A stretch of DNA of 64,000 nucleotides. Source: a virus (Duplodnaviria; Heunggongvirae; Uroviricota; Caudoviricetes). The stretch is taken from IMG/VR virus record IMGVR_UViG_3300027985_001053, one strand, 5' to 3'. Made by a program: the position numbers and the translations under genes. The notes beneath the pieces were generated by a model. The model worked only from the letters and a program-made list of their open reading frames with translations. It was not told the origin of the DNA and did not search any database. Shown here piece by piece: positions 7,392-29,165 of this stretch; within the stretch, counting starts at the first letter, position 1; each line of letters opens with the position of its first letter.

Positions 7392-7849
7392 TTGGTGAAT
7401 AAAAGTTTAATGTTTAGTAGTAAAGAAGAAAAATGGCAAACGCCAGATAATGTATTTAATGAATTAAATGAAGAGTTTAATTTTACATTGGATCCTTGTT
7501 GCCAGCATGATAGTGCAAAATGTGATAAATATTATACGCCTGTAGAAGATGGCTTAAGTCAATCATGGGCAAATGAAACGGTCTTTGTAAATCCTCCTTA
7601 TGGTAGAGAATTAAAAAGTGGGTTAAAAAATCACATAATGAAGCTATTTACAATAAAGCCACAGTGGTTATGCTAATACCAGCAAGGACAGATACAAGCT
7701 ATTTTCATGATTATATTTATAATAAGTTTGAAGTTCGATTTATTAGAGGTAGAATTAAGTTTGTAGATCCAGCTACAAAAAAGCAAGGGGATTCTGCTCT
7801 ATTCCCTACAATGATCGTAGTCATGAAGCATAACAGTAAAAGGGATTAA
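7392..7849 (+). pseudogene. dam: DNA N6-adenine methyltransferase (T1/P1-type phage Dam family), disrupted by a frameshift near 7640
   Basis: frame 1 gives WQTPDNVFNELNEEFNFTLDPCC...NPPYGRELK; the overlapping frame continues EAIYNKATVVMLIPARTDTSYFHDYIY...RFIRGRIKF...ALFPTMIVV. Base 7640 must be read twice to join them. Confidence 0.7.
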
Positions 7850-8991: not shown

Positions 8992-9249
8992 ATGAACGAA
9001 AGTAATTGTTTAGAATGTAAAACGTATATTGAATCGGAGCCATACAATGAGTGTAATAAATGTCTCAACAATAGTCATTTTATCAAGGATGTTGAACCGG
9101 TAGAAGAAGTTTGTGAGTATACCTATACGAATAAAAATCAGGTTGCATTAAAAGGATGTATCGATGTATGGGATGATACTTTTATTGTTCATCGTTGGAA
9201 GTATTGTCCTTATTGTGGTAAACCAAGGAAGATTAGAAATTGGGAATGA
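8992..9249 (+). CDS. zinc-ribbon protein, paralog of 8334..8612
   Basis: CLECK...CNKC...YCPYCGKPRKI. Confidence 0.45.
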   Translation: MNESNCLECKTYIESEPYNECNKCLNNSHFIKDVEPVEEVCEYTYTNKNQVALKGCIDVWDDTFIVHRWKYCPYCGKPRKIRNWE

Positions 9250-9326
9250 ATATTCTAAAAAAATTAAAAGAACTCCTATTTGTGTGCGACCATGACTATA
9301 GACAACAAGGATTAACCCGTATAGGT

Positions 9327-9464
9327 ATGGATATTTATCCAGAATATCTAGAGCATAAATGCTCTAAATGTGGGAACAAGGTAATGAAAAGAAATAAATA
9401 TATGCCCTGCTGAGGTAGAGAAAAGCCAGTAAATAGTGTGTGCAAATATTGTGGTAGGAAATAA
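9327..9464 (+). pseudogene. small zinc-ribbon ORF with in-frame TGA (paralog of 5946..6083)
   Basis: TGA at 9411..9413 aligns with a TGC (Cys) codon in the paralog. Confidence 0.35.
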
Positions 9465-9497
9465 AAAGAGTAAAACAATTATTGAGAGAGGTTTAAT

Positions 9498-10016
9498 ATG
9501 GCAATAGAATATGCTGCAAAATATAAAGATTTTTTAAAAAGCTTTTTAACAGATTTTAATACGCAAGAGTACTTGAAGTTTTTCAACGCTAGGTCTTATG
9601 CTTCAAGCTTTGAATTAGATAGTTCTTCGGACTGGAATACTATATCTGTAGTATCTACTACAGGTAATAAAGTAAACGCCTTATTTAGTGCGGATGTTAA
9701 TAGAGATTCTAATATAATAGCAGGTTTTCAAATTGTAGCGATCCGATATGGGGAAGTAACACCGAATATTAGTACCAGTGTTAAAGATTGTTTCGAGTTT
9801 ATAGATTTTTTACTTAATGTAAAAAAGTTTAGAAAAATATGTTTTGCGTGTTATGTAGGAAATCCTGCGGAAACTATTTATGATAGGATTATTAAAAAAT
9901 ATAATGGTCGAATTGTTGGAACTCAGTTACAGCATAACAAACTCTATGACGGTAAGTACTATGACTTAAAACTTTATGAAATATTTCCAGATAAGGAATA
10001 TTCAAAGCATATCTAA
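9498..10016 (+). CDS. hypothetical protein
   Basis: 172 aa; RBS gagagagg; followed by a terminator. Confidence 0.5.
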   Translation: MAIEYAAKYKDFLKSFLTDFNTQEYLKFFNARSYASSFELDSSSDWNTISVVSTTGNKVNALFSADVNRDSNIIAGFQIVAIRYGEVTPNISTSVKDCFEFIDFLLNVKKFRKICFACYVGNPAETIYDRIIKKYNGRIVGTQLQHNKLYDGKYYDLKLYEIFPDKEYSKHI

Positions 10017-10023
10017 GTAATAA

Positions 10024-10052
10024 AAAACCCTCTTAATCGAGGGTTTTATTTT
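10024..10052 (+). terminator. rho-independent terminator
   Basis: aaaccctc-ttaatc-gagggttt hairpin followed by tatttttaa. Confidence 0.7.
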
Positions 10053-10246
10053 TAATGTATAACTTTATTAAGGTCTTGCTGTTAATCCGTAATTATACTC
10101 AGCTAAGATTAAATCAATCTCTTTGTTAACTTCTTTAGGACCAATCTCAAGATGCCCTTTATCAACCAACCGTTTATAGGCAATTTTTCTTAAAGTTAGT
10201 AACAACTGTACGATATACATCGTAGCCTCCTTTCTAGTGTAATAAA

Positions 10247-10435
10247 TTAGTCTAACAATAATTTCAAACCAGCTACTAAACTTCCAGTTATAGCAATAGT
10301 TATTCCATACGCTAGTAAGGTGCTTTTTACCCCTGCTATTTTAACAAAATAATATGTTATGACATTAAACAATATTAGTAATATAATAACTCCAAACATC
10401 TTTTTCATTAATTTCTCCTTATTTACTCTTCCCAA
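10247..10435 (-). CDS. small membrane protein (2 TM)
   Basis: 62 aa, hydrophobic. Confidence 0.35.
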   Translation of the reverse strand: MGRVNKEKLMKKMFGVIILLILFNVITYYFVKIAGVKSTLLAYGITIAITGSLVAGLKLLLD

Positions 10436-10616
10436 TTATACCCAACAACATATTTAGGTATATCAAAATCATTAATCCTGATGTCTTCCACTCTTTTGGT
10501 ACCATAGCAGTCAACCATAACTTTTATTAACCACTGCCCATTAGGAAGTTCAAACGCATCCTCCAGGATTTCTACTATTGTAACTTTCACTTTATTCATA
10601 AATTTCTATGTCCTCT

Positions 10617-11027
10617 TTACATAATAAGTAAATCTAAAAAACTTTTAGCTGCTTTATTTGCTAATTTATGTAACTCTTCATACTTAATATTCAGCGTATT
10701 ATTATCAATAAAAGCCATCGCAATATTAGATTGCCATCCCATGTAATAATCAGCGTCTTCTTTTAAATGCTTCCGTAGCATATCTATACTCTTATGAAGA
10801 GGTGTTTTTACTTCATCATCCTCTAGCACTGGAGTAACGTTATCAAACGTTACTTGTATTGTTGAAGGTGCTGTGGGATTACAGTCTTTACAATGATTAA
10901 CTAATTCAAAATGTTTGTCCTCTTTGCAAATACGACAATCACATTGTACATCATAATAAAAATACGTTCTTTTTAAGCGTGCAGATTTACCGCAACAATC
11001 ACATTTACCATACATTACCTCGTCCAT
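10617..11027 (-). CDS. Cys-rich zinc-binding protein
   Basis: CDCCGK...CDCRIC...CKDC. Confidence 0.4.
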   Translation of the reverse strand: MDEVMYGKCDCCGKSARLKRTYFYYDVQCDCRICKEDKHFELVNHCKDCNPTAPSTIQVTFDNVTPVLEDDEVKTPLHKSIDMLRKHLKEDADYYMGWQSNIAMAFIDNNTLNIKYEELHKLANKAAKSFLDLLIM

Positions 11028-11038
11028 GAAAATCTCCT

Positions 11039-11479
11039 TTATTTAACCTTCCTATAAAATATTGTTATCCCGTTTAAATGATCGAACTCATGTTGGAATA
11101 CTTTAGCATCTAAACCTCTTAAACGATACAAGACATTCTCACCTTTACAGTTAGTAAAGCTTACTTGAATAGTAACAGGCCTCATAATGTTAACAAATCC
11201 ATAGGTAGCCGAAGGGTATGTTAAACATCCTTCTTTCATAGCTTTCTTTTGTTTGCTTGTAAAAACTATTGAAGGGTTATATACACTTATGACTTCACCT
11301 TGATATTTCATAATGAAAAACTTTTGGTTTATTCCTACCTGTGGGGCAGCTAACCCAATACCATCTTTCATAACTTCAATCATCTTAGGTATAATCTCTT
11401 TTTCAATTGTAGTTATCTCGCTATTAAGAACACTTCTGCATTCACAACCTTCTACGAATTCTTTATCAACTAATTTCAT
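11039..11479 (-). CDS. def: peptide deformylase
   Basis: motifs GIGLAAPQVG, EGCLTYPS and QHEFDHLNG; start placed at the internal ATG (MKLVDKE) because aaggagat lies 6 nt upstream. Confidence 0.85.
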   Translation of the reverse strand: MKLVDKEFVEGCECRSVLNSEITTIEKEIIPKMIEVMKDGIGLAAPQVGINQKFFIMKYQGEVISVYNPSIVFTSKQKKAMKEGCLTYPSATYGFVNIMRPVTIQVSFTNCKGENVLYRLRGLDAKVFQHEFDHLNGITIFYRKVK

Positions 11480-11790
11480 CGTAATCTCCTTGCTTAGATA
11501 CATTACCTTGAAATAGGCCATAAAGTCAACTAAGTTAAATTAAAAGCGTATTGTACTTTTAAAAATATTATGCTATCCTATCTAAATAAAGGAAATGATA
11601 CAATATGAAACATAAAGAGTCTGAAGGTCACAAACGTCAGGTAATAGGAAATAAAGTTTGGGTTTGTGATTACAGGTTTAAGAGACCTAGTATTTTCCCC
11701 TAGGACAAGATAGATATTGAAAAACTACAAAAAGAGCATAGTGAACAGAGAATATTAAATGACATTAGGTCTAAAAATTAAGGAGACAAT

Positions 11791-12018
11791 ATGTATAAGA
11801 CAGAAATTGATTTAGTAAACAGTGTTATGAGTGGTTCTGGAGTCTGGAGCCATAAGCAAACAGCCTGGTACAAACTAAAAGCTTTTATAGAAGAACATGC
11901 CAAAGATAACTTGGTAAAATTACCTACCCCTGAGCAATTATACGAAAAGGTTAGAACCAGAGTAACTTATGAAGATGTTGAGGTTATTCTTAAATTGCTT
12001 AAAACAGGTGATTTTTAG
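11791..12018 (+). CDS. hypothetical protein
   Basis: 75 aa; RBS aaggagac. Confidence 0.4.
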   Translation: MYKTEIDLVNSVMSGSGVWSHKQTAWYKLKAFIEEHAKDNLVKLPTPEQLYEKVRTRVTYEDVEVILKLLKTGDF

Positions 12019-12054
12019 ATACATGCTTAACTTTTAATTTCAAGCATGTATCTA
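12017..12054. terminator. bidirectional terminator hairpin between convergent genes
   Basis: perfect 13-bp inverted repeat tagatacatgctt / aagcatgtatcta. Confidence 0.55.
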
Positions 12055-12064
12055 AACGTAGATA

Positions 12065-13051
12065 TTAACAACGACTAGAAGAACTACTCCCTCCACAAGA
12101 ATTACGAGAGGGTATCCTATGTATTTCGCAACCAGAATATCCAGAGACATTACTAGATAAATTAGTATTGGATCTCTGCTCTATCATAGGTGAGCTGTAC
12201 TTCTTAAGAATAGCGTTTAACGTCTTCTCAGAAGGAGAGGATTTTATTGGACTCATAGGTCTCTTTCCAGTCCAATCAAGATAGCATATTCCATCCGGTT
12301 GAAACACAACTTCAAAGACCTCATCCGAAGGAATAATATCAGTAGGTTCTAGTAAAGAGCTCTTCCAGTATACCTTAGTACCAAGAATCCTCTGAAGAGT
12401 AGTTCGACATACCGGACAAGACCCCTCCCACAATACCCTATAATCATTGAAAGTTAGTTCTACTGGAGTTTTGTCAAGAGTACCATTCTCTTTACGAAAC
12501 CTTACTGCTTCAAAACCCATATTCCTAGCCCATGCGATATAAGCCTCTATAAACTCTCTAGAAGTCAAGTCAGTTATTACACAATTAACACTAATATCAA
12601 TACCTCGTTTTCCATACTCATCTATGATTACAGATAGCTTACTATCCGGTAAATCATAAGTACCTTTAAAAATGCTCTTGTTCTTTGATTCATCATAATG
12701 ATGTCTACTAATGTTAATATGGTCTACTGCTACAGAGACTTGATCTATCTTCTCAAGCAATCCTGTTCCATTTGTTGTTAATAGAATATTAGTATACTTA
12801 TCTCTAAAATCCGGTAGTATCTCAAATACCAAATCGAAGTAAGGTGAAAGCAAAGGCTCTCCTCCAGTTATAGATATTTGATAAAACTTCTTATCTAAAT
12901 TAGTTAAAGTTTCTATTAGATTAGAGATATAAGCCGTTTTTCTAAGTGTAGGAAACTCTACATCCTTAGTATTAAAACAAAAGTCACAGGAAGCATTACA
13001 GCCTCCTGGCATCACTATTGAAAAGTTTGGGTCATTATTCGTTGTCTTCAT
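12065..13051 (-). CDS. radical SAM enzyme (MoaA/viperin-like N-terminal CxxxCxxC class), function unknown
   Basis: GGCNASCDFCFNT cluster at residues 18-25, ITGGEPLL SAM motif, TTNG. aggagg RBS. Unusual Cys/Ser-rich C-terminal tail (GCEIHRIPSRNSCGGSSSSSRC). Confidence 0.75.
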   Translation of the reverse strand: MKTTNNDPNFSIVMPGGCNASCDFCFNTKDVEFPTLRKTAYISNLIETLTNLDKKFYQISITGGEPLLSPYFDLVFEILPDFRDKYTNILLTTNGTGLLEKIDQVSVAVDHINISRHHYDESKNKSIFKGTYDLPDSKLSVIIDEYGKRGIDISVNCVITDLTSREFIEAYIAWARNMGFEAVRFRKENGTLDKTPVELTFNDYRVLWEGSCPVCRTTLQRILGTKVYWKSSLLEPTDIIPSDEVFEVVFQPDGICYLDWTGKRPMSPIKSSPSEKTLNAILKKYSSPMIEQRSNTNLSSNVSGYSGCEIHRIPSRNSCGGSSSSSRC

Positions 13052-13074
13052 TTATTTAGGGCCTCCTAGCCTTA

Positions 13075-14202
13075 CTATGCTTTAAAATTATATAAAGGTC
13101 GTACTCTATAAAGTATCTCTACAGAATCTTCCATATACCTTTCTACTGAGAGATAATCTTTGTATGCAGCAGGAGCCTCATCAAGAGTAGACTCTGAAAT
13201 ACAACTAGAATACACACTTTCCATAGACTGTTTAAAAGTTTCTAAATCTAATAACTCTTTGGCCCTCGTCCGAGACATTGTTCTACCTGCACCATAAGGA
13301 GCTGAAAAGTTCCAGTCAGGATTACCTTTACCCCTTCCGATAATAAGACCATCTCTCATATTCCAAGGAATTACTACAAGCTCTCCCAAATTTGCTGATA
13401 TCGCACCCTTACGGATAATCCCAAAGTCAAAATCTATATAATTATGAATAGACTCTACGGTATCTAGAATATCACAATGTAAAAAACTAACAATCTTATC
13501 CATGATTATTCTCCGGTTTAACGATGCATACTCTTGAGCTACTTTCATATGACCTATATACCTATTAGCAGAATTACCTGTTAAGTATTCCATCCCTTTA
13601 GGAATTTCTTCCATAGAAAGCTTTTGTTCTAATTTAAAAGACTCTCTATCCTTTAAAGGTATATTGGTTAAATCTATCCTAGTAGTAGAACATAAGTTCT
13701 CAGCTTCTTTCTGATGATACGTCGCTACCTGTAAACCAAAATTACGAGAACCTGAATGTATCGTTAACCAAAGATTACTCTCCTCATCTTCACCTATCTC
13801 TATAAAGTGATTCCCTCCTCCTAAGGTACCTAGCGATAATAACACCCTCTCACTAGAAAGACTTATATCTGAACAGACTGATAACAACCTCTCTTTGAAA
13901 TCGTCAGGTATCTCAGGGCTACGAGTATTGACTTTAAACCCAGAAGGGATAAACTCTCTAACAAAAGTATCCAAAGACTCAAACCCTATCGCCTTCCTAT
14001 CAAGCTTACAGGATAACATCCCACAACCTATATCTACTCCTATTACAGACCCAGAACCTGCATGTATGTCTGGCATAAATCTCGTCTTACAACCTTCAAA
14101 AGCAGGGTGATTTAAAAATAGCTGTACCTGGTCTAAAGCACTAGAGGCAACATCCTCTGTAAATATCTTACAATCTGTATAAGCTCCTCTTAATTCTATC
14201 AT
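13075..14202 (-). CDS. rtcB: RtcB-family RNA ligase (3'-phosphate/5'-OH)
   Basis: MPDIHAGSGSVIGVDIGCGM, TLGGGNHFIEIG, HSGSRNFG, HNYID, APYGAGRTMSRTRAKEL and AYKD all align with E. coli RtcB. Confidence 0.85.
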   Translation of the reverse strand: MIELRGAYTDCKIFTEDVASSALDQVQLFLNHPAFEGCKTRFMPDIHAGSGSVIGVDIGCGMLSCKLDRKAIGFESLDTFVREFIPSGFKVNTRSPEIPDDFKERLLSVCSDISLSSERVLLSLGTLGGGNHFIEIGEDEESNLWLTIHSGSRNFGLQVATYHQKEAENLCSTTRIDLTNIPLKDRESFKLEQKLSMEEIPKGMEYLTGNSANRYIGHMKVAQEYASLNRRIIMDKIVSFLHCDILDTVESIHNYIDFDFGIIRKGAISANLGELVVIPWNMRDGLIIGRGKGNPDWNFSAPYGAGRTMSRTRAKELLDLETFKQSMESVYSSCISESTLDEAPAAYKDYLSVERYMEDSVEILYRVRPLYNFKA

Positions 14203-14295
14203 CTTTATCTCCTTATTTATTAGATAATAAGCATTATTGACTTAAAATAAAATAAAGTCAATTAAAATCAACTAAAAACCACGAAAATTCCACTT

Positions 14296-14336
14296 CAAAT
14301 TTTAGCCTTCAAAATTTTTAAAACCAGTTTTAAAAA
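14296..14336. repeat. about 40-bp direct repeat, left copy (aaattttagccttcaaaatttttaaaaccagtttt)
   Basis: near-identical copy at 14890..14930 flanks gene 14403..14870. Confidence 0.6.
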
Positions 14337-14402
14337 AAAGACCCCCACCCCCTCTTGCTACTTAACTCTAAGTTATGTATTCTTCTACATAAGGAGATTA
14401 AG

Positions 14403-14870
14403 ATGAATACAACCCTAAGAGAAATATACACACATAACCCATGTAAAGAAGGATTCGCAAGATTAAACTTCACTTTAACAGGTAATCAATGCTTTAACAG
14501 TAATAAACCAAGTACCATGACTAAACATTTCTTTGAATTAAATATTACTAAACAATTCGCACTTCTTCCAGAAGATATAAAAGATAAAGAAATTAGTATG
14601 CTACAAATCCTAGAATCAAATGGTATTAAAGATGCTATATGGGCTCTAAGAACACAACCTATACAACAGACTTCTCAGATCAGAGAAGAGTTACTTAAGC
14701 AGACTCTTACAGCTACAATAGCCTGTGAAAGAACTTCCCTACCTCCCGAGAAATACTCCTACCTTCTCTACCTACTAGAACGAGATCTTTTTATCTTCTC
14801 TGAAAAAGTATGTGAAGAAGAAAGAATCTCCTGGGAAGAGATTGAGAATATACTTAGAAAGCATCTTTAA
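14403..14870 (+). CDS. hypothetical protein
   Basis: ATG at 14403 preceded by aaggagatta; ORF-track start 14355 lacks an RBS. Confidence 0.45.
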   Translation: MNTTLREIYTHNPCKEGFARLNFTLTGNQCFNSNKPSTMTKHFFELNITKQFALLPEDIKDKEISMLQILESNGIKDAIWALRTQPIQQTSQIREELLKQTLTATIACERTSLPPEKYSYLLYLLERDLFIFSEKVCEEERISWEEIENILRKHL

Positions 14871-14889
14871 GAAAACCCTCAAAATATAT

Positions 14890-14930
14890 TCCAAATTTTA
14901 GCCCTCGAAATTTTTAAAACCAGTTTTTAA
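14890..14930. repeat. about 40-bp direct repeat, right copy
   Basis: see 14296..14336. Confidence 0.6.
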
Positions 14931-15213
14931 AACACTTAAAAAGTTTTAGCAATACAAATGTATCCCATGTAGCTAATAACAGATAAAGGACGAAGACTTT
15001 AAAAACCCATAGCAGTGTATAAAGTATATCTTCAAAGTAAGTATAACCTCTTAAGAGTAACAGGGTATGGAAGAGAAAAGATAAGAGTACTATCGGTTAT
15101 CGTCTCTAAGCTCTGGGGGAATACTTCTCGACAATAGCGTAACAGGGTATCGGGGTATCAGAGAGGCTTCGGGATACAAGTAATAATTACTTTTTGTGGA
15201 GTAGGTAGTCTTT

Positions 15214-15345
15214 GAGGGTATTTGGGTATTTTTGGTATTTGGGTATCTGGGTATTCGGGGGTGAGTAGAGAGACTTCTTCGAGAGTTCTAGAGAGCTAAG
15301 GGTATTGGATGCAGGGGATTGGGTATTTGGGTATTTTTGGTGCAG
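15214..15345. repeat. GGGTAT(T) heptad-like tandem repeats (two clusters), G-tract rich
   Basis: gagggtatttgggtatttttggtatttgggtatctgggtattcggggg and gggtattggatgcaggggattgggtatttgggtattttt. Confidence 0.7.
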
Positions 15346-15457
15346 GGCGTATGAGCGTAAGCTCTAAGTATCGAAATTTCGTTCTGGTTTCCAGCCTTCG
15401 ATAAGTCAAAAGGACTTTCCCTTGGGGCGGTGTTGCGTATATAGGGATGGGGGGGGG

Positions 15458-15790
15458 TTAGTGTTGCACAAAGTGAAATAACCCTGAACCAGGTTCTTAA
15501 GATTGCAATATCAGATCATTAGTGTTGCATAAAGTGAAACAACACTGATCCAGGTTTACCAGCTTGCAATACCAAATAATTAGTGTTGCACAAAGTGAAA
15601 TAACCTTGAACCAGGTTCTTAAGATCGCAATATCAGATCATTAGTGTTGCATAAAGTGAAATAACCCTGAACCAGGTTCTTAAGATTGCAATATCAAATA
15701 TCAAATAATTAGTGTTGCACAAAGTGAAATAACCCTGAACCAGGTTCTTAAGATTGCAATATCAAATAATTATTACTGCATAAATCGGGA
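15458..15790. repeat. five tandem 61-bp direct repeats, an iteron-like array, preceded by a G9 homopolymer
   Basis: unit ttagtgttgcaYaaagtgaaataaccctgaaccaggttcttaagattgcaatatcaRat repeated head-to-tail at 15458, 15519, 15580, 15641 and 15709. Confidence 0.85.
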
Positions 15791-15888
15791 TAACATTTTA
15801 TAGATATCAAAAAAATACCCCATCGCTCAAAATCGAGCTATAAAGCCACGTTATGTGAAAGTTATACATTTATATTACTTTTATATAT

Positions 15889-15932
15889 AAATCATTTCTA
15901 ATAGCTCGATTATAAGCTATTAGAAATGATTT
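15889..15932. promoter_or_regulatory. perfect 18-bp inverted repeat in the AT-rich region
   Basis: aaatcatttctaatagct-cgattata-agctattagaaatgattt. Confidence 0.6.
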
Positions 15933-16219
15933 TTGATTTATGAGTTACTACTCTATAACTATCTTTTTATATGCTTTATCAAATAAAAACCGTATAGGGA
16001 ATTTTCCTATACAAAATGAGTAAAATTCCCTATATATTTTTTAAATTTTTAGTTCTATTATTAACACATAGGGACGGGACGCACACATATATACAAGCAG
16101 TAAAAAAGCTTGTATATATATATAAATATATATATGTGCTTAAAAACTTTTAAAAAGTTTTAAAAAATGTTGGCAACTACTAAAAATGTTGTTAATATTA
16201 AAGAGTAGAGGAGTTAACG

Positions 16220-16411
16220 ATGGACGTGTTAGCAAAAGATGTTTGTTTTATAGAAAATGGGTTTGGCGATGGTATGCTCTATAATAAAGATGGATCTGCA
16301 TGTTGGCAACTGCCGGCGTGTATAAAAAAAGAGGATATCATTCAAGGTTTCCCTCACTACATCATTAAGAGAGAAGCCTTGGACAAAAACGAGATTAGAA
16401 AATGGTTCTAA
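16220..16411 (+). CDS. hypothetical protein
   Basis: 63 aa ORF. Confidence 0.35.
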   Translation: MDVLAKDVCFIENGFGDGMLYNKDGSACWQLPACIKKEDIIQGFPHYIIKREALDKNEIRKWF

Positions 16412-16432
16412 TCTAGAAAAAAGGAGAATAAT

Positions 16433-16618
16433 ATGAAAGACATTAAAATTGAAGAAGTTACAGAATTTGATAGTTATTTGTCAAGCTCCGCAAGTTTTGA
16501 AATGAATTTGCTTTTAGCAAATTCATCTTTTTTAAAAGGCGTTAAAAGTCATGAAGCAGAGAAACTAAATGTTTCTCTTATCGACCTACATTTCGGGCGT
16601 GACGTCCGGAATGCATAA
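16433..16618 (+). CDS. hypothetical protein
   Basis: 61 aa; RBS aaggagaa. Confidence 0.35.
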   Translation: MKDIKIEEVTEFDSYLSSSASFEMNLLLANSSFLKGVKSHEAEKLNVSLIDLHFGRDVRNA

Positions 16619-16630
16619 AAACTTTTTATC

Positions 16631-16666
16631 AAGTATATTGACACAAATTAATATACTCGATAATAT
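16631..16666 (+). promoter_or_regulatory. promoter family B copy 1: TTGACA, 17-bp spacer, TAATAT, with palindrome caagtatat/atatactcg
   Basis: sigma70-like spacing; same cassette at 18450 and 19216. Confidence 0.6.
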
Positions 16667-16671
16667 ATACA

Positions 16672-16716
16672 AGCTTGCAATGGTTTTTATAGTAGTTCGA
16701 ATCTACTAGCAAGCTA
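16672..16716 (+). ncRNA. tRNA-like minihelix leader, copy 1 (acceptor stem agcttgc/gcaagct, T-arm tagtag-TTCGAAT-ctacta, discriminator A)
   Basis: starts 6-7 nt after the -10 box, so it would be the 5' end of the transcript. Confidence 0.5.
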
Positions 16717-16742
16717 TAAATAAAAATTTTAAGGAGAATAAG

Positions 16743-17234
16743 ATGGAATTTACTTTAGAAGAAATCAATGAAATTATGGATAGAAATAATGGGGATCTAA
16801 TCCTCAAGGATACACTTATCAAAACATTACCAGAAGGGTTAAAGGTTCAAGGAAACTTGGATCTGACAGATACCGACATTCAAGAGTTACCAAACGGGTT
16901 AATAGTTGGAAAAAACTTAAACTTGTACTTTACAAAGGTAACGTCGTTACCTGAAAATTTAAAAGTTGGTGGATGGGTAGAGCTACAAGGGACTAAGATA
17001 GAGACGTTACCAAAAGGTTTAGAAGTAGGCTTATCCCTAGATGCAAGCTATACACCAATGACAACACTACCAAGAGATTTAAAAATTGGTGGTTACCTTA
17101 GTCTGAGAGGGACTAAGGTAATAACATTACCAAAAGGGTTAACCGTAGGAACCGTTTTAGATATAACGAATACAAAAGTTAAGTCTTTACCTAAAGACTT
17201 AAAAGTAGGAGGTAAAATCTACAGCGATCTATAA
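16743..17234 (+). CDS. LRR-family protein, short form (7 repeats, no C-terminal domain)
   Basis: MEFTLEEINEIM leader, then 20-residue repeats LxLxxTxIxxLPxxLxVGGx. Confidence 0.6.
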   Translation: MEFTLEEINEIMDRNNGDLILKDTLIKTLPEGLKVQGNLDLTDTDIQELPNGLIVGKNLNLYFTKVTSLPENLKVGGWVELQGTKIETLPKGLEVGLSLDASYTPMTTLPRDLKIGGYLSLRGTKVITLPKGLTVGTVLDITNTKVKSLPKDLKVGGKIYSDL

Positions 17235-27443: not shown

Positions 27444-29165
27444 ATGGAATATACTTTAGAAGAATTAAATAGAATGATGAAAGATAATGATGGAAACTTA
27501 GATTTAAGACATACTAAAATTACATCACTGCCTAAAGGATTAACAGTTGGAGGTAACTTATATTTAAGAAATACTCAAATTACCTCGTTACCAGGAGATT
27601 TAATTGTTGGAGGAGACTTAGATTTAAGTTATACTCCAATCACATCGTTACCAGGAGATTTAATTGTTGGAGGAGACTTAGATTTAAGTTATACTCCAAT
27701 CACATCGTTACCAGACGATTTAATTGTTGGAGGAGACTTAGATTTAAGTTATACTCCAATCACATCGTTACCAGACGATTTAATTGTTGGAGGTAGCTTA
27801 TATTTAAGCAATACTCAAATTAAATTATTACCAAAAGGATTGAAGGTTGGAGGTGGGGTAGATTTAAGATATGCTCCGATTAAATCATTACCAGAAGACT
27901 TATCTGTTGGAAGTAGCTTAGATTTAAGTCGTACTCAAATTAAATCATTACCAGAAGGGTTAAAGGTTGGAGGTTGGTTAGATTTAAGATATGCTCCAAT
28001 TAAATCGTTACCAGAAGAGTTAATGGTGAAAGGTAGTTTATATTTAGAAAATACTCAAGTTACCTCGTTACCAGAAGGGTTCATGGTTAGAGGTAGCTTA
28101 TATTTAAGTCATACTCAAATCACATCGTTACCAAAAGGGTTAACGGTTGGAGGAGACATAGATTTAAGATATGCTCCAATTACATCGTTACCAGAAGGGT
28201 TAACCGTTGGTGGTAATTTAGACTTAGAAGGTACTAAAATTACCTCGTTACCAGAAGGGTTAACTGTTGGAGGTTGGCTAGATTTAAGTCATACTCAAAT
28301 CACATCGTTACCAAAAGGGTTAACGGTTGGAGGAGACATAGATTTAAGCGTTACTCCGATTACAACACTACCAGAAAGGTTAACGGTTGGAAGAAATCTA
28401 GATTTTAGATATACTAAAATTACCTCGTTACCAGAAGGGTTAACTGTTGGAGGTTGGCTAGATTTAAGAAATACTCAAATTACATCATTGCCTAAAAGGT
28501 TAACTGTTGGAGGATATTTAGATTTAAGTTCTACTCAAATTACATCGTTACCTGAAGGATTAACCGTTGGAGGTAACTTATATTTAGAAGGTACTAAAAT
28601 CACATCGTTACCGAAAGGGTTAACGGTTGGAGGATATTTAGCTTTAAGTAATACTCCAATTAAATCGTTATCAATAGATTTAAAAGTTGGAGGTACCATA
28701 TTTAGCGATTTACCTAAAAATAAAGTCAAATATACAAAACTTCAACAAGGTGACTATAGTGAAGCTGACTATCTGTATGCAGATGGAATCTTAACTCATA
28801 TTAAAGCTAAAAAATATTTTGATAAATATACATATTTTATTGGAGAATTTAAAGATAAAAATGTACTTTATGATGGAACTTATTATGTTCACTGTAAAAA
28901 CATTAAGCAAGGAATTGAGGATCTTAACTTCAAACATGCTAAAGATAGAGGGTCTGATCACTACAAAAATCTAAAATTATCCAGTATTCTATCTTTTGAA
29001 GAATCTAAAACGATGTACAGGATTTTAACCGGTGCGTGTAGACAAGGTACTGAAAGTTTTATTGAAAATTTGAAAATAATAAAAGAACAGTATACCATCC
29101 AAGAATTAATAGATCTAACTGTTAATCAATACGGTTATGAAACTTTTAAGAAGTTTTTTAGTTAA
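27444..29165 (+). CDS. LRR-family protein, long form (20 consecutive 20-residue repeats plus C-terminal domain)
   Basis: repeat consensus LDLxxTxITSLPEGLTVGGx; C-terminal domain shared with the 19645 and 22097 genes. Confidence 0.65.
   Translation: MEYTLEELNRMMKDNDGNLDLRHTKITSLPKGLTVGGNLYLRNTQITSLPGDLIVGGDLDLSYTPITSLPGDLIVGGDLDLSYTPITSLPDDLIVGGDLDLSYTPITSLPDDLIVGGSLYLSNTQIKLLPKGLKVGGGVDLRYAPIKSLPEDLSVGSSLDLSRTQIKSLPEGLKVGGWLDLRYAPIKSLPEELMVKGSLYLENTQVTSLPEGFMVRGSLYLSHTQITSLPKGLTVGGDIDLRYAPITSLPEGLTVGGNLDLEGTKITSLPEGLTVGGWLDLSHTQITSLPKGLTVGGDIDLSVTPITTLPERLTVGRNLDFRYTKITSLPEGLTVGGWLDLRNTQITSLPKRLTVGGYLDLSSTQITSLPEGLTVGGNLYLEGTKITSLPKGLTVGGYLALSNTPIKSLSIDLKVGGTIFSDLPKNKVKYTKLQQGDYSEADYLYADGILTHIKAKKYFDKYTYFIGEFKDKNVLYDGTYYVHCKNIKQGIEDLNFKHAKDRGSDHYKNLKLSSILSFEESKTMYRILTGACRQGTESFIENLKIIKEQYTIQELIDLTVNQYGYETFKKFFS
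27591..27770 (+). repeat. three perfect or near-perfect tandem 60-bp DNA repeats inside the LRR gene
   Basis: ccaggagatttaattgttggaggagacttagatttaagttatactccaatcacatcgtta, three copies. Confidence 0.85.

What the first reader, a model, noticed from the sequence alone, without database searches (positions are those of the whole stretch)
12065..14202. RtcB RNA ligase and radical SAM enzyme in a two-gene operon
A clear RtcB homolog (13075..14202) sits 24 bp upstream of a radical SAM gene (12065..13051). The radical SAM gene has an N-terminal CxxxCxxC cluster, a GGEPLL SAM motif and an unusual Cys/Ser-rich C-terminal tail (SCGGSSSSSRC). The pair has its own RBSs and a bidirectional terminator hairpin at 12017..12054. 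RtcB reseals 2',3'-cyclic-phosphate/5'-OH breaks made by anticodon nucleases and other RNA-cleaving defence toxins. A co-transcribed radical SAM partner, possibly restoring or altering an RNA modification or making a modified nucleotide, is not a described module as far as I know.
Basis: partly seen in the sequence, partly recalled or inferred. Interest (0 to 1): 0.75.

Follow-up and report, generated by a model that had tools for sequence, protein, structure and literature searches.

The report
Orphan radical SAM beside crippled RtcB
A phage carries, probably as one transcript, an RtcB RNA-ligase copy that has lost its catalytic histidine and a member of an unstudied, phage-borne radical SAM family that is found beside tRNA genes and tRNA-repair enzymes more often than control genes are, which hints at an unknown radical step in how phages keep tRNAs working.

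Summary
The reading needs two corrections.

1. The RtcB copy is atypical. The histidine that normally receives GMP is a tyrosine (Y303), and a 15-residue segment is missing. Both changes were seen in none of 119 other homologues and in no IMG/VR contig. Its overall substitution rate is normal. It is unlikely to be a canonical ligase.

2. The RtcB/radical SAM pair is not a conserved module. RtcB lies within 6-8 kb in only 3 of 50 loci that carry a family member. None of 80 phage RtcB loci carries the radical SAM.

The radical SAM itself is the interesting part.
- It belongs to no named family. MoaA and viperin are closest, and all scores fall far below their cut-offs.
- It defines a family of about 313 clusters, found almost only on viral or phage-like contigs.
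- The family has a conserved disordered Cys-Gly-rich tail that usually ends in Cys.
- 16 of 50 family loci hold tRNA genes or RNA end-repair enzymes (RtcB, Thg1-like, CCA-adding, HAD_SAK_2, Tpt1). In two control sets the figure is 4-6%.

Best guess: a nucleotide- or tRNA-directed radical enzyme in a phage tRNA-maintenance guild. Its substrate and chemistry are unknown.

The parts
13075..14202 (-). RtcB-family gene (375 aa); metal and GMP-pocket residues kept, nucleophile and one segment lost
   Evidence: PF01139 at 167 bits, phrog_1075 at 3e-110. D57, C60, N131, H132, E135, H149, H253 and K374 are conserved in alignment A2.
13294..13296 (-). TAT codon for Tyr303, at the position of the invariant GMP-accepting His (SAPHGAGR motif)
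   Evidence: Aligned to the His of the HGAGR motif in human RTCB chains. His in 117 of 120 homologues, 2 did not fit the search pattern, Tyr only here. IMG/VR: 0 Tyr-pattern hits against at least 120 His-pattern hits. Role of this His: PMC8668186.
14035..14055 (-). Site of the 15-residue deletion (after Ser52, between PDIHAGSGS and VIGVDIGCGM)
   Evidence: All 22 aligned homologues carry AVIGTTVELSDKIIPN-like residues here. The spacing from PDxHxG to VDIxC is 21 in 102 of 104 scorable homologues and 6 only in the window protein.
12065..13051 (-). Radical SAM gene (328 aa), member of an unnamed family found on phage contigs
12977..13000 (-). C18-x3-C22-x2-C25 radical SAM cluster motif (CNASCDFCF)
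   Evidence: Invariant in alignment A1.
12407..12418 (-). CPVC (C212, C215) at a predicted beta-hairpin; possible half of a second metal or cluster site
   Evidence: Invariant in 34 of 34 sequences. A CxxC is present in 235 of 238 family representatives. The equivalence to the MoaA CxxC is by eye only and hhalign does not support it.
12068..12178 (-). Disordered Ser/Gly/Cys tail (residues 292-328) ending in SCGGSSSSSRC
   Evidence: pLDDT below 50. Family-wide, 211 of 238 have at least 2 Cys in the tail, 189 of 238 have a Cys in the last 3 residues, 143 of 238 end in Cys, and tail Cys is nearly always followed by Gly.
14233..14261 (-). Promoter-like site TTGACT-17-AATAAT upstream of the RtcB-like gene
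   Evidence: 10 of 12 consensus matches. This is a consensus match only.
13052..13074 (-). 23-nt intergenic spacer with AGGAGG (13062..13067)
   Evidence: Read from the sequence. No promoter-like site was found here, which fits co-transcription.
12014..12056 (.). 17-bp hairpin between convergent genes; probable transcript end
   Evidence: -20.4 kcal/mol, z = -5.9. No U-tract.

Best explanation
The locus is a probably co-transcribed pair of accessory genes in a low-GC myovirus-like phage.

Gene 1 is an RtcB descendant. It keeps the metal-binding residues and the GMP pocket. It has lost the histidine that forms the covalent RtcB-GMP intermediate (now Tyr303) and a 15-residue segment next to the active-site DIGCG motif. 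It should therefore not ligate RNA by the canonical route. Whether it is freshly inactivated or has been re-purposed, for example as a GTP- or RNA-end-binding protein, is open.

Gene 2 belongs to an uncharacterised radical SAM family found almost only on viral or phage-like contigs. Inferred mechanism:
1. The N-terminal [4Fe-4S] cluster (C18, C22, C25) cleaves SAM reductively to give a 5'-deoxyadenosyl radical.
2. The MoaA/viperin-like barrel binds a nucleotide substrate. The most likely substrate is a nucleotide within a tRNA or at a tRNA end; a free NTP is the alternative.
3. The invariant CPVC hairpin and the cysteines of the flexible Cys-Gly tail form a second metal or cluster site, or supply catalytic thiols.

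The gene needs no dedicated phage partner. It travels in a loose tRNA-maintenance or counter-defence guild made of tRNA genes, RtcB, RNA ligase, Thg1-like, CCA-adding enzyme, RNA-repair phosphatases, Tpt1 and peptide deformylase.

Shown: gene structure, family membership, the RtcB lesions, the tail conservation and the neighbourhood statistics. Inferred: co-transcription, the substrate, the role of the tail and the counter-defence purpose.
For: RtcB lesions:
- Tyr at the His position and the 15-residue gap are each unique among the homologues examined. The Tyr pattern has 0 IMG/VR hits against at least 120 for the His pattern.
- The His is the GTP-attacking nucleophile (PMC8668186).
- Metal ligands and GMP-contact residues are retained. 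Relative-rate tests show no acceleration.

Nature of the radical SAM:
- Cluster motif and GGE motif are present.
- No extra domains in long family members.
- Family size is about 313 clusters at 50% identity. It was found on IMG/VR contigs and in cultured Erwinia jumbo phages. Only 4 good hits occur in 185,579 GTDB genomes, all on short MAG contigs.
- Tail conservation.

Genomic context:
- tRNA genes in 6 of 44 family loci, against 4 of 120 random viral loci and 4 of 79 ThyA loci.
- Pfam-confirmed genes near the radical SAM in different loci: Thg1-like (L017 adjacent; L031 four genes upstream), CCA-adding enzyme (L025), HAD_SAK_2 (L048), RtcB (L014). In L039 an RNA ligase directly precedes a distant relative of the family.
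- Combined, 13 of 44 against 5 of 120 (p = 2.5e-5) and 5 of 79 (p = 8e-4).
- ThyA neighbours scanned the same way give DHFR, RNR and dCMP deaminase, and no RNA-repair family among the 25 listed.
- Replication set of 6 further loci: 3 have tRNA genes, one has RtcB plus Tpt1, one has HAD_PNKP.
Against: - No biochemical evidence exists for any family member.
- About two thirds of family loci show no RNA-related neighbour, and no single neighbour is conserved.
- Some contexts point elsewhere: PAPS reductase, ParB and a DNA methylase in L003; a prophage repressor in L558; NAD-salvage and Tad2 genes.
- The enrichment could reflect shared residence in accessory-gene islands of larger phages rather than shared function. 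The RNA-repair queries used on the control sets came from family loci, which biases that part of the test. The 44 loci were made non-redundant by hand.
- Known tRNA-modifying radical SAM enzymes (MiaB, TYW1, RlmN, Elp3) are poorer structural matches than MoaA and viperin, which act on free NTPs.
- The window holds no tRNA gene.
- The proposed equivalence of CPVC to the MoaA auxiliary-cluster motif has no statistical support.
Confidence: 0.45

Rival explanations
1. RtcB and the radical SAM form a dedicated two-enzyme RNA-repair module: RtcB reseals tRNA cut by host nucleases, and the radical SAM restores or alters a modification at the repaired site.
For: - Tight same-strand spacing of 23 nt, with each gene having its own ribosome-binding site, one promoter-like site upstream and one hairpin downstream.
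- Two more family loci have RtcB nearby: L014, two genes away on the same strand, and L556, 4 kb away on the opposite strand.
- A distant relative in L039 lies between an RNA ligase and an RtcB.
Against: - The RtcB here lacks the nucleophilic His and a conserved segment.
- RtcB is the immediate neighbour only in this phage, and is within 6-8 kb in only 3 of 50 family loci.
- None of 80 phage RtcB loci has the radical SAM.
- The closest radical SAM relative (72% identity) has no RtcB in the 10 kb upstream; only about 0.7 kb downstream was available. The closest intact RtcB found on a long contig (59% identity) has no radical SAM within 10 kb.
Confidence: 0.1
2. The two genes are merely neighbours in an accessory-gene island. 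The radical SAM acts on a free nucleotide, as viperin and MoaA do. It might make a modified NTP or destroy a host immune nucleotide, for host takeover, counter-defence or exclusion of competing phages. It would have no direct role on RNA.
For: - The best sequence and fold matches are the two NTP-acting enzymes, MoaA and viperin/pVip.
- The CNxxCxFCF and TTNG motifs resemble theirs (and my own knowledge of those families).
- Neighbours also include NAD-salvage genes, Tad2-like and NUDIX.
- The gene occurs alone in many small temperate phages.
Against: - All scores are far below the family cut-offs (57 against 180 for viperin, 56 against 284 for MoaA).
- The C-terminal domain matches nothing solved.
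- This model does not explain direct adjacency to Thg1-like, CCA-adding, HAD_SAK_2 and RNA ligase genes, or the gene's position inside a 17-tRNA array in L012.
Confidence: 0.25
3. The Cys-Gly tail is the enzyme's own fused substrate. The protein would be a self-modifying RiPP-like maturase, or a carrier whose tail cysteines are cross-linked or oxidised.
For: - The tail is conserved in character across the family, with repeated C-G-G or C-G-S units and a terminal Cys, while the linker varies from 18 to more than 200 residues.
- Peptide-modifying radical SAM enzymes (SuiB, SkfB, anSME, YydG) are among the fold and sequence hits.
Against: - No SPASM or twitch auxiliary-cluster domain and no peptide-recognition domain was detected.
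- The peptide maturases score below MoaA and viperin.
- No protease or exporter neighbours were seen.
- This model does not explain the tRNA context.
Confidence: 0.1
4. The radical SAM is an ordinary activase of a glycyl-radical enzyme (NrdG or PflA type), as some automatic annotations of homologues state.
For: JGI names some homologues 'pyruvate-formate lyase-activating enzyme' or 'organic radical activating enzyme'. There are weak NrdG and PFLA model hits.
Against: - NrdG2 scores 34 bits against a cut-off of 131, and PFLA 32 against 232.
- No NrdD homologue is in the 64-kb window.
- The protein is about twice the length of NrdG and has a distinct C-terminal domain.
- No glycyl-radical enzyme appears among the neighbours of 44 loci.
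Confidence: 0.03

Closest known systems
RtcB 3'-phosphate/5'-OH RNA ligase (E. coli RtcB, P. horikoshii RtcB, phage RtcB phrog_1075)
   Same: Full-length homology to the short phage and bacterial RtcB clade (3e-110 to phrog_1075). The Asp/Cys/His metal ligands and the Asn, Glu and Lys GMP-pocket residues are conserved.
   Different: The invariant GMP-accepting His is Tyr303, and 15 residues are missing between the PDxHxG and DIGCG motifs. Both changes are unique among the homologues examined.
MoaA, GTP 3',8-cyclase
   Different: 56 bits against the model cut-off of 284. Only two Cys lie where MoaA has a CxxCx13C auxiliary-cluster motif, and Trp229 sits at the spacing of the third Cys; this alignment is by eye and is not statistically supported. 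No MoaC partner was seen. The family is phage-borne.
Viperin and prokaryotic viperins (pVip)
   Different: 57 bits against a cut-off of 180. The match covers only residues 17-184. The C-terminal domain and Cys tail are unrelated. The gene is carried by phages rather than sitting in host defence islands.
Phage tRNA repair sets (T4 Pnkp/Rnl1; phage RtcB, Thg1-like, CCA-adding enzyme, Tpt1)
   Same: The family repeatedly sits next to these genes and to tRNA arrays. That is the same kind of neighbourhood in which counter-measures to anticodon nucleases are encoded.
   Different: As far as I know, no radical SAM enzyme is part of any described RNA end-healing or sealing pathway, and literature searches found none. 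The link here is statistical, not mechanistic.
RlmN/Cfr and LipA (radical SAM enzymes that use residues in flexible C-terminal regions)
   Same: They are precedents, from my own knowledge, for conserved Cys or Ser in a mobile C-terminal region acting as a methyl carrier or resolving thiol on RNA (RlmN, Cfr) or as a ligand of an auxiliary cluster (the LipA RSSY motif).

Membership tests
RtcB RNA ligase | Pfam PF01139 above the gathering score | tested here: met
   167 bits against 27; phrog_1075 at 3e-110.
RtcB RNA ligase | Metal ligands (Asp and Cys of DIxCG, His of GNHF, His of HSGSR, His of HNY) | tested here: met
   D57, C60, H132, H149 and H253 are invariant columns in alignment A2.
RtcB RNA ligase | Invariant His that forms the covalent His-GMP intermediate (Ec H337, Ph H404, Hs H428) | tested here: not met
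   Tyr303 (TAT, 13294..13296).
RtcB RNA ligase | Complete catalytic core | tested here: not met
   A 15-residue deletion after Ser52. The motif spacing is 6 residues against 21 in 102 of 104 scorable homologues.
RtcB RNA ligase | GTP/Mn-dependent ligation of 2',3'-cyclic-phosphate or 3'-phosphate ends to 5'-OH ends | not testable with these tools
   Needs an enzyme assay.
Radical SAM superfamily | CxxxCxxC cluster motif, GGE SAM motif and a partial TIM-barrel fold | tested here: met
MoaA (GTP 3',8-cyclase) | Score above the TIGR02666 cut-off | tested here: not met
   56.2 bits against 284.
MoaA (GTP 3',8-cyclase) | C-terminal CxxCx13C auxiliary cluster motif | tested here: not met
   Only C212 and C215 are present. 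Trp229 sits at the spacing of the third Cys in a by-eye alignment with E. coli MoaA. hhalign aligned only the 4 CxxC columns, at probability 0.4%.
MoaA (GTP 3',8-cyclase) | C-terminal Gly-Gly tail | tested here: inconclusive
   CGG units are common in the tail (185 occurrences in 238 proteins), but the protein usually ends in [R/H/G/S]-Cys, not Gly-Gly.
Viperin / pVip | Score above the NF038283 cut-off with full-length coverage | tested here: not met
   57.3 bits against 180. Only residues 17-176 match.
NrdG activase | Score above the TIGR02495/02491 cut-offs, and NrdD present | tested here: not met
   34 bits against 131 and 23.5 against 126. The best NrdD tblastn hit in the window has E = 0.53. 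The rest of the 129.7-kb contig was not visible.
QueE / TYW1 / MiaB / RlmN (nucleotide- or tRNA-directed radical SAM enzymes) | Family model or fold as the best match | tested here: not met

The most novel reading that the evidence does not exclude
The family catalyses a radical-based step on tRNA: either repair of a damaged nucleotide or end, or installation of a protective modification. This would add a chemistry not known in any RNA-repair pathway. The Cys-Gly tail would supply ligands for a second cluster, or catalytic or sacrificial thiols. Phages would deploy the enzyme, together with interchangeable end-healing and sealing enzymes, against tRNA-targeting host defences.
Probability: 0.3. 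Interest if true: 0.85.

Novelty: new variant of a known kind. Interest (0 to 1): 0.6.

Why it matters
Phage counter-measures to tRNA-cleaving defences are known only as end-healing, sealing and tRNA-replacement functions. A family of about 300 sequence clusters of radical SAM enzymes, found almost only on viral or phage-like contigs and associating with those functions, would add a new enzymatic layer: radical chemistry on tRNA or on nucleotides feeding repair.

It would also give enzymologists a compact MoaA/viperin-like scaffold with an unusual tethered Cys tail. A homologue exists in cultured Erwinia jumbo phages (pEa_SNUABM_34, 220832..221971), so the hypothesis can be tested directly.

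Separately, an RtcB with an intact pocket but Tyr in place of the nucleophile is a natural experiment on whether RtcB has non-ligase roles.

If the association turns out to be only an island effect, the finding reduces to an orphan radical SAM next to a damaged RtcB.

Tried and rejected
- Megablast of the locus against 50,697 phage records gave no match, so no annotated relative could be used.
- tblastn of the radical SAM found only seven Erwinia jumbo phages, where it is annotated as hypothetical.
- All-against-all blastp clustering of neighbours found no conserved partner.
- Long family members were scanned for informative fused domains, and none was found.
- A profile of the C-terminal domain alone against PDB gave only trivial CPVCR zinc-knuckle matches (E >= 0.6). 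hhalign against the C-terminal half of E. coli MoaA was not significant. The idea of a MoaA-type auxiliary cluster therefore stays a conjecture.
- Rfam search of 9000..17000 gave nothing, and there are no tRNA genes in the window.
- A DnaB-based control set was too small (13 loci, partly the same phages) and was dropped. It was replaced by random 14-mer positions and ThyA loci.
- The afdb50 fold library was unavailable. BFVD gave only unnamed or generic radical SAM hits.
- Four literature searches found no description of the family or of a radical SAM in RNA-repair neighbourhoods. The Burroughs and Aravind 2016 survey of RNA-repair systems is not held in the library, so prior mention there cannot be excluded.
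- The NrdG/NrdD explanation was rejected.
- 'RtcB is a decaying pseudogene' is not favoured. Tajima-type relative-rate tests show no excess of substitutions and the ORF is intact. Very recent inactivation cannot be excluded.
Full report
**1. The observation**

Both ORFs exist on the minus strand exactly as described: 13075..14202 (375 aa) and 12065..13051 (328 aa).
- They are separated by 23 nt.
- AAGGAG and AGGAGG precede the two start codons.
- A TTGACT-17-AATAAT site lies upstream of the first gene.
- A 17-bp hairpin (-20.4 kcal/mol, z = -5.9) follows the second gene and separates it from a convergent ORF.
- The hairpin has no U-tract. 'Operon' and 'terminator' are therefore reasonable inferences, not demonstrations.
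- Pfam assigns the proteins to RtcB (167 bits) and Radical_SAM (51.6 bits).
- The CxxxCxxC, GGEPLL and SCGGSSSSSRC features are all present.

**2. Setting**

The window is low in GC, 28-35%. It is phage-like, with tail sheath, major head protein and terminase-like genes at 45-56 kb.
- It has no tRNA gene and no close relative among 50,697 deposited phages.
- The identical proteins occur on a 129,693-bp metagenomic contig and on an independently assembled 13-kb Logan contig.
- A peptide deformylase gene lies just beyond the hairpin.

**3. The RtcB copy is not canonical**

Aligned with 22 diverse members of its clade, the window protein keeps the metal ligands (D57, C60, H132, H149, H253) and the GMP-pocket residues (N131, E135, K374). 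It differs in two places.
- It has Tyr303 in the otherwise invariant S-A-P-H-G-A-G-R motif.
- It lacks 15 residues between PDIHAGSGS and VIGVDIGCGM.

The Tyr aligns with the His of the HGAGR motif in human RTCB. That His is the residue that attacks GTP to form RtcB-GMP: His428 in human, His404 in P. horikoshii, His337 in E. coli (PMC8668186).

How unusual the two changes are:
- Among the 120 best homologues, 117 have His, two did not fit my search pattern, and only the window protein has Tyr.
- The motif spacing is 21 residues in 102 of 104 scorable sequences and 6 only here.
- A degenerate DNA pattern for W-N-x-S-A-P-Y-G-A-G-R finds nothing in IMG/VR.
- Relative-rate tests against nine relatives with two outgroups show no excess substitutions (all p > 0.14).

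The protein is therefore not generally decaying. It was either inactivated very recently or is kept for something that does not need the His. By the established mechanism it should not ligate.

**4. The radical SAM protein belongs to no named family**

The best NCBIfam hits all cover only the N-terminal 180 residues or less:

| Model | Score (bits) | Cut-off (bits) |
|---|---|---|
| viperin | 57 | 180 |
| MoaA | 56 | 284 |
| NrdG | 34 | 131 |
| QueE | 21 | 260 |

- A family profile finds MoaA (2.9e-14) and viperins (2e-11) first in the PDB. PADLOC gives pVip at 6e-18.
- The AlphaFold2 model (pLDDT 85.6) has a confident core to about residue 270 and a disordered tail from residue 292.
- The C-terminal domain alone matches nothing solved.
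- By eye, C212-P-V-C215 ... G224 ... W229 lines up with E. coli MoaA C-A-T-C ... G ... C, which would put Trp in place of the third cluster ligand. hhalign gives this no support, so it remains a lead only.
- No NrdD homologue is in the window.

**5. It defines a sizeable phage-borne family with a peculiar tail**

- Homologues number 346 in the word-indexed search. An exhaustive profile search finds 313 clusters at 50% identity with E<=1e-30.
- They lie on IMG/VR viral contigs and on phage-like metagenome contigs. They also occur in cultured Erwinia jumbo phages.
- A scan of 185,579 species genomes returned only four good hits, all on short MAG contigs.
- Invariant positions include the cluster motif, GGEP, TTNG, N-I-S-R-H-H, C-P-V-C, E-P and D-W.
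- After the core comes a linker of 18 to more than 200 residues and a Ser/Gly/Cys tail. Of 238 representatives, 211 have at least two tail Cys, 189 have a Cys in the last three residues, and 143 end in Cys, usually preceded by Arg, Gly or His. Tail Cys is almost always followed by Gly: CGG 185 times, CGS 94 times.
- Longer members carry more CGG units but no extra Pfam domain.

**6. Linkage to RtcB specifically is not conserved**

- Of 63 loci with a family member, about 44 non-redundant, RtcB lies within 6 kb only in the window's own contig and in L014. L014 is a high-GC phage with the order RtcB (intact SAPHGAGR), a SLOG protein, a 75-aa ORF, then the radical SAM, all on one strand.
- Of six further loci, one (L556, a 249-kb phage) has RtcB 4 kb away on the other strand.
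- The closest radical SAM relative (72% identity) has no RtcB in the 10 kb upstream that could be read. The closest intact RtcB on a long contig (59% identity) has no radical SAM within 10 kb and sits near Tad8 and Acb3 anti-defence genes.
- None of 80 IMG/VR RtcB loci holds the radical SAM.
- No neighbour family is conserved by blastp clustering.

**7. The family as a whole is associated with tRNA genes and RNA end-repair enzymes**

A Pfam scan of the two genes on either side of the radical SAM in the 44 loci returned Thg1, PolyA_pol (CCA-adding enzyme), HAD_SAK_2, cREC_REC and RNase_T. It also returned NAD-salvage genes and Tad2-like.

Individual loci were checked:

| Locus | Arrangement |
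|---|---|
| L017 | Thg1-like, 55-aa ORF, radical SAM |
| L031 | Thg1-like, NUDIX, two small ORFs, radical SAM |
| L025 | CCA-adding enzyme directly upstream of the radical SAM |
| L024 | CCA-adding enzyme 4.5 kb away |
| L048 | HAD_SAK_2, 110-aa ORF, radical SAM |
| L039 | RNA ligase (PF09414) directly upstream of a distant N-I-S-R-H-H relative, then a second radical SAM and RtcB 4 kb on |
| L040 | Thg1-like plus NAD synthase, with a 30-codon remnant of the radical SAM N-terminus upstream |

tRNA genes:
- In L012 the radical SAM lies inside a 17-tRNA array.
- In L006 two tRNA genes lie within 450 nt upstream.
- L020 has 14, L053 has 4, L003 has 2 and L021 has 1.

Rates of loci holding a tRNA gene:

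| Set | Loci with a tRNA gene |
|---|---|
| Radical SAM family | 6 of 44 |
| Random IMG/VR positions | 4 of 120 |
| ThyA loci | 4 of 79 |
| RtcB loci | 40 of 80 |

- Counting a tRNA gene or an RNA-repair enzyme, the figures are 13 of 44, against 5 of 120 (p = 2.5e-5) and 5 of 79 (p = 8e-4). Without the window's own locus the second comparison gives p = 1.6e-3.
- The same neighbour scan on ThyA loci returns DHFR (15 times), ribonucleotide reductase and dCMP deaminase. No RNA-repair family is among the 25 families listed. The method therefore does recover functional guilds.
- In the replication set of six loci chosen only for contig length, three have a tRNA gene within 1.4-3.4 kb. One has RtcB, Tpt1 and NUDIX. 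One has HAD_PNKP 7 kb away.

Caveats:
- The RNA-repair queries used on the control sets came from family loci.
- Redundancy was removed by hand.
- tRNA genes, RNA-repair genes, NAD-salvage genes and anti-defence genes tend to share accessory islands, so part of the signal may be an island effect.
- About two thirds of family loci show no RNA-related neighbour.

**8. Interpretation**

The specific picture of a two-enzyme RtcB/radical SAM module does not survive, and the RtcB at this locus is probably not a working ligase.

I consider it most likely (about 0.45) that the radical SAM acts on a nucleotide in, or destined for, tRNA as part of phage tRNA maintenance or counter-defence. The CPVC hairpin and the tail cysteines would form a second metal site or act as catalytic thiols.

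Rivals:
- Action on a free NTP, unrelated to RNA: 0.25.
- A dedicated module with RtcB: 0.1.
- Self-modification of the tail: 0.1.
- A glycyl-radical activase: 0.03.

**9. Novelty**

Phage RtcB and phage tRNA repair are known (PMC7824862). I found no description of this radical SAM family, of its tail, or of any radical SAM in RNA-repair neighbourhoods. One key survey could not be read. I rate the finding a new variant of a known kind, with moderate to high interest that depends on biochemical follow-up.

Noticed in passing
window 14871-16219: A 1.35-kb stretch with no ORF of 60 aa or more lies about 0.7 kb upstream of the RtcB-like gene. It holds a tandem array of 5 x 61 nt (15458-15772), 5.4 x GGGTATTT (15216-15259) and a perfect 18-bp hairpin (15889-15932). 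It looks iteron-like, so it could be a replication origin or a protein-binding array. There is no Rfam hit.
   Followed up: partly
window 14276-14336 and 14872-14932: A 61-nt element (80% identical copies) brackets ORF 14355-14870. Its core, AAATTTTTAAAACCAGTTTTWAAAA, occurs only at these two places in 64 kb (0 expected by chance). One copy sits in the divergent promoter region shared with the RtcB-like gene. It could be a regulatory site or the edges of a small cassette.
   Followed up: partly
window 11039-11521 (-); L557 6369-6800: A phage peptide deformylase (Pfam 5e-31) lies just beyond the hairpin. A deformylase also lies 1.2 kb from the radical SAM homologue in an unrelated 237-kb phage contig.
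   Followed up: partly
window about 7410-7849 (+) (L002 7639-8078): A Dam-type DNA methylase (PF05869) is split into two adjacent called genes of 59 and 88 aa. It may be frameshifted or degraded.
   Followed up: no
L039 4487-12059: In a high-GC 118-kb phage contig, an RNA ligase (PF09414 plus an OB domain) is directly followed by a distant N-I-S-R-H-H radical SAM with a Cys-rich end. A second, different radical SAM is immediately followed by a 468-aa RtcB 4 kb downstream.
   Followed up: partly
L556 6849-15531: In a 249-kb phage contig the order is NUDIX, an unknown gene, the radical SAM homologue, then Tpt1 (RNA 2'-phosphotransferase), tRNA-Trp, RtcB and a second weak radical SAM. This is a dense RNA-repair neighbourhood.
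   Followed up: partly
L141 251-2497 and 10001-11173: The closest intact RtcB relative found on a long contig lies about 8 kb from Tad8 and Acb3 anti-defence genes. This fits RtcB residing in a counter-defence island.
   Followed up: no
L040 6001-7792: A 30-codon remnant (63% identical) of the radical SAM N-terminus lies just upstream of a Thg1-like gene and an NAD synthase. This suggests the radical SAM was lost from a former radical SAM/Thg1 neighbourhood.
   Followed up: partly
window 16743-17234 and 27444-29165: Two proteins share a leucine-rich, LPxxLxVxGxLxL-like repeat (phrog_21719; weak LRR_14 hit). Their function is unknown.
   Followed up: no
L003 6645-11655: In the 61%-identical relative's phage, the radical SAM sits in the run PAPS reductase, ParB_N, radical SAM, an unknown gene, Lipase_3, C5 DNA methylase. 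This context looks like DNA modification and does not fit the tRNA theme, although two tRNA genes lie 5-6.5 kb upstream.
   Followed up: no
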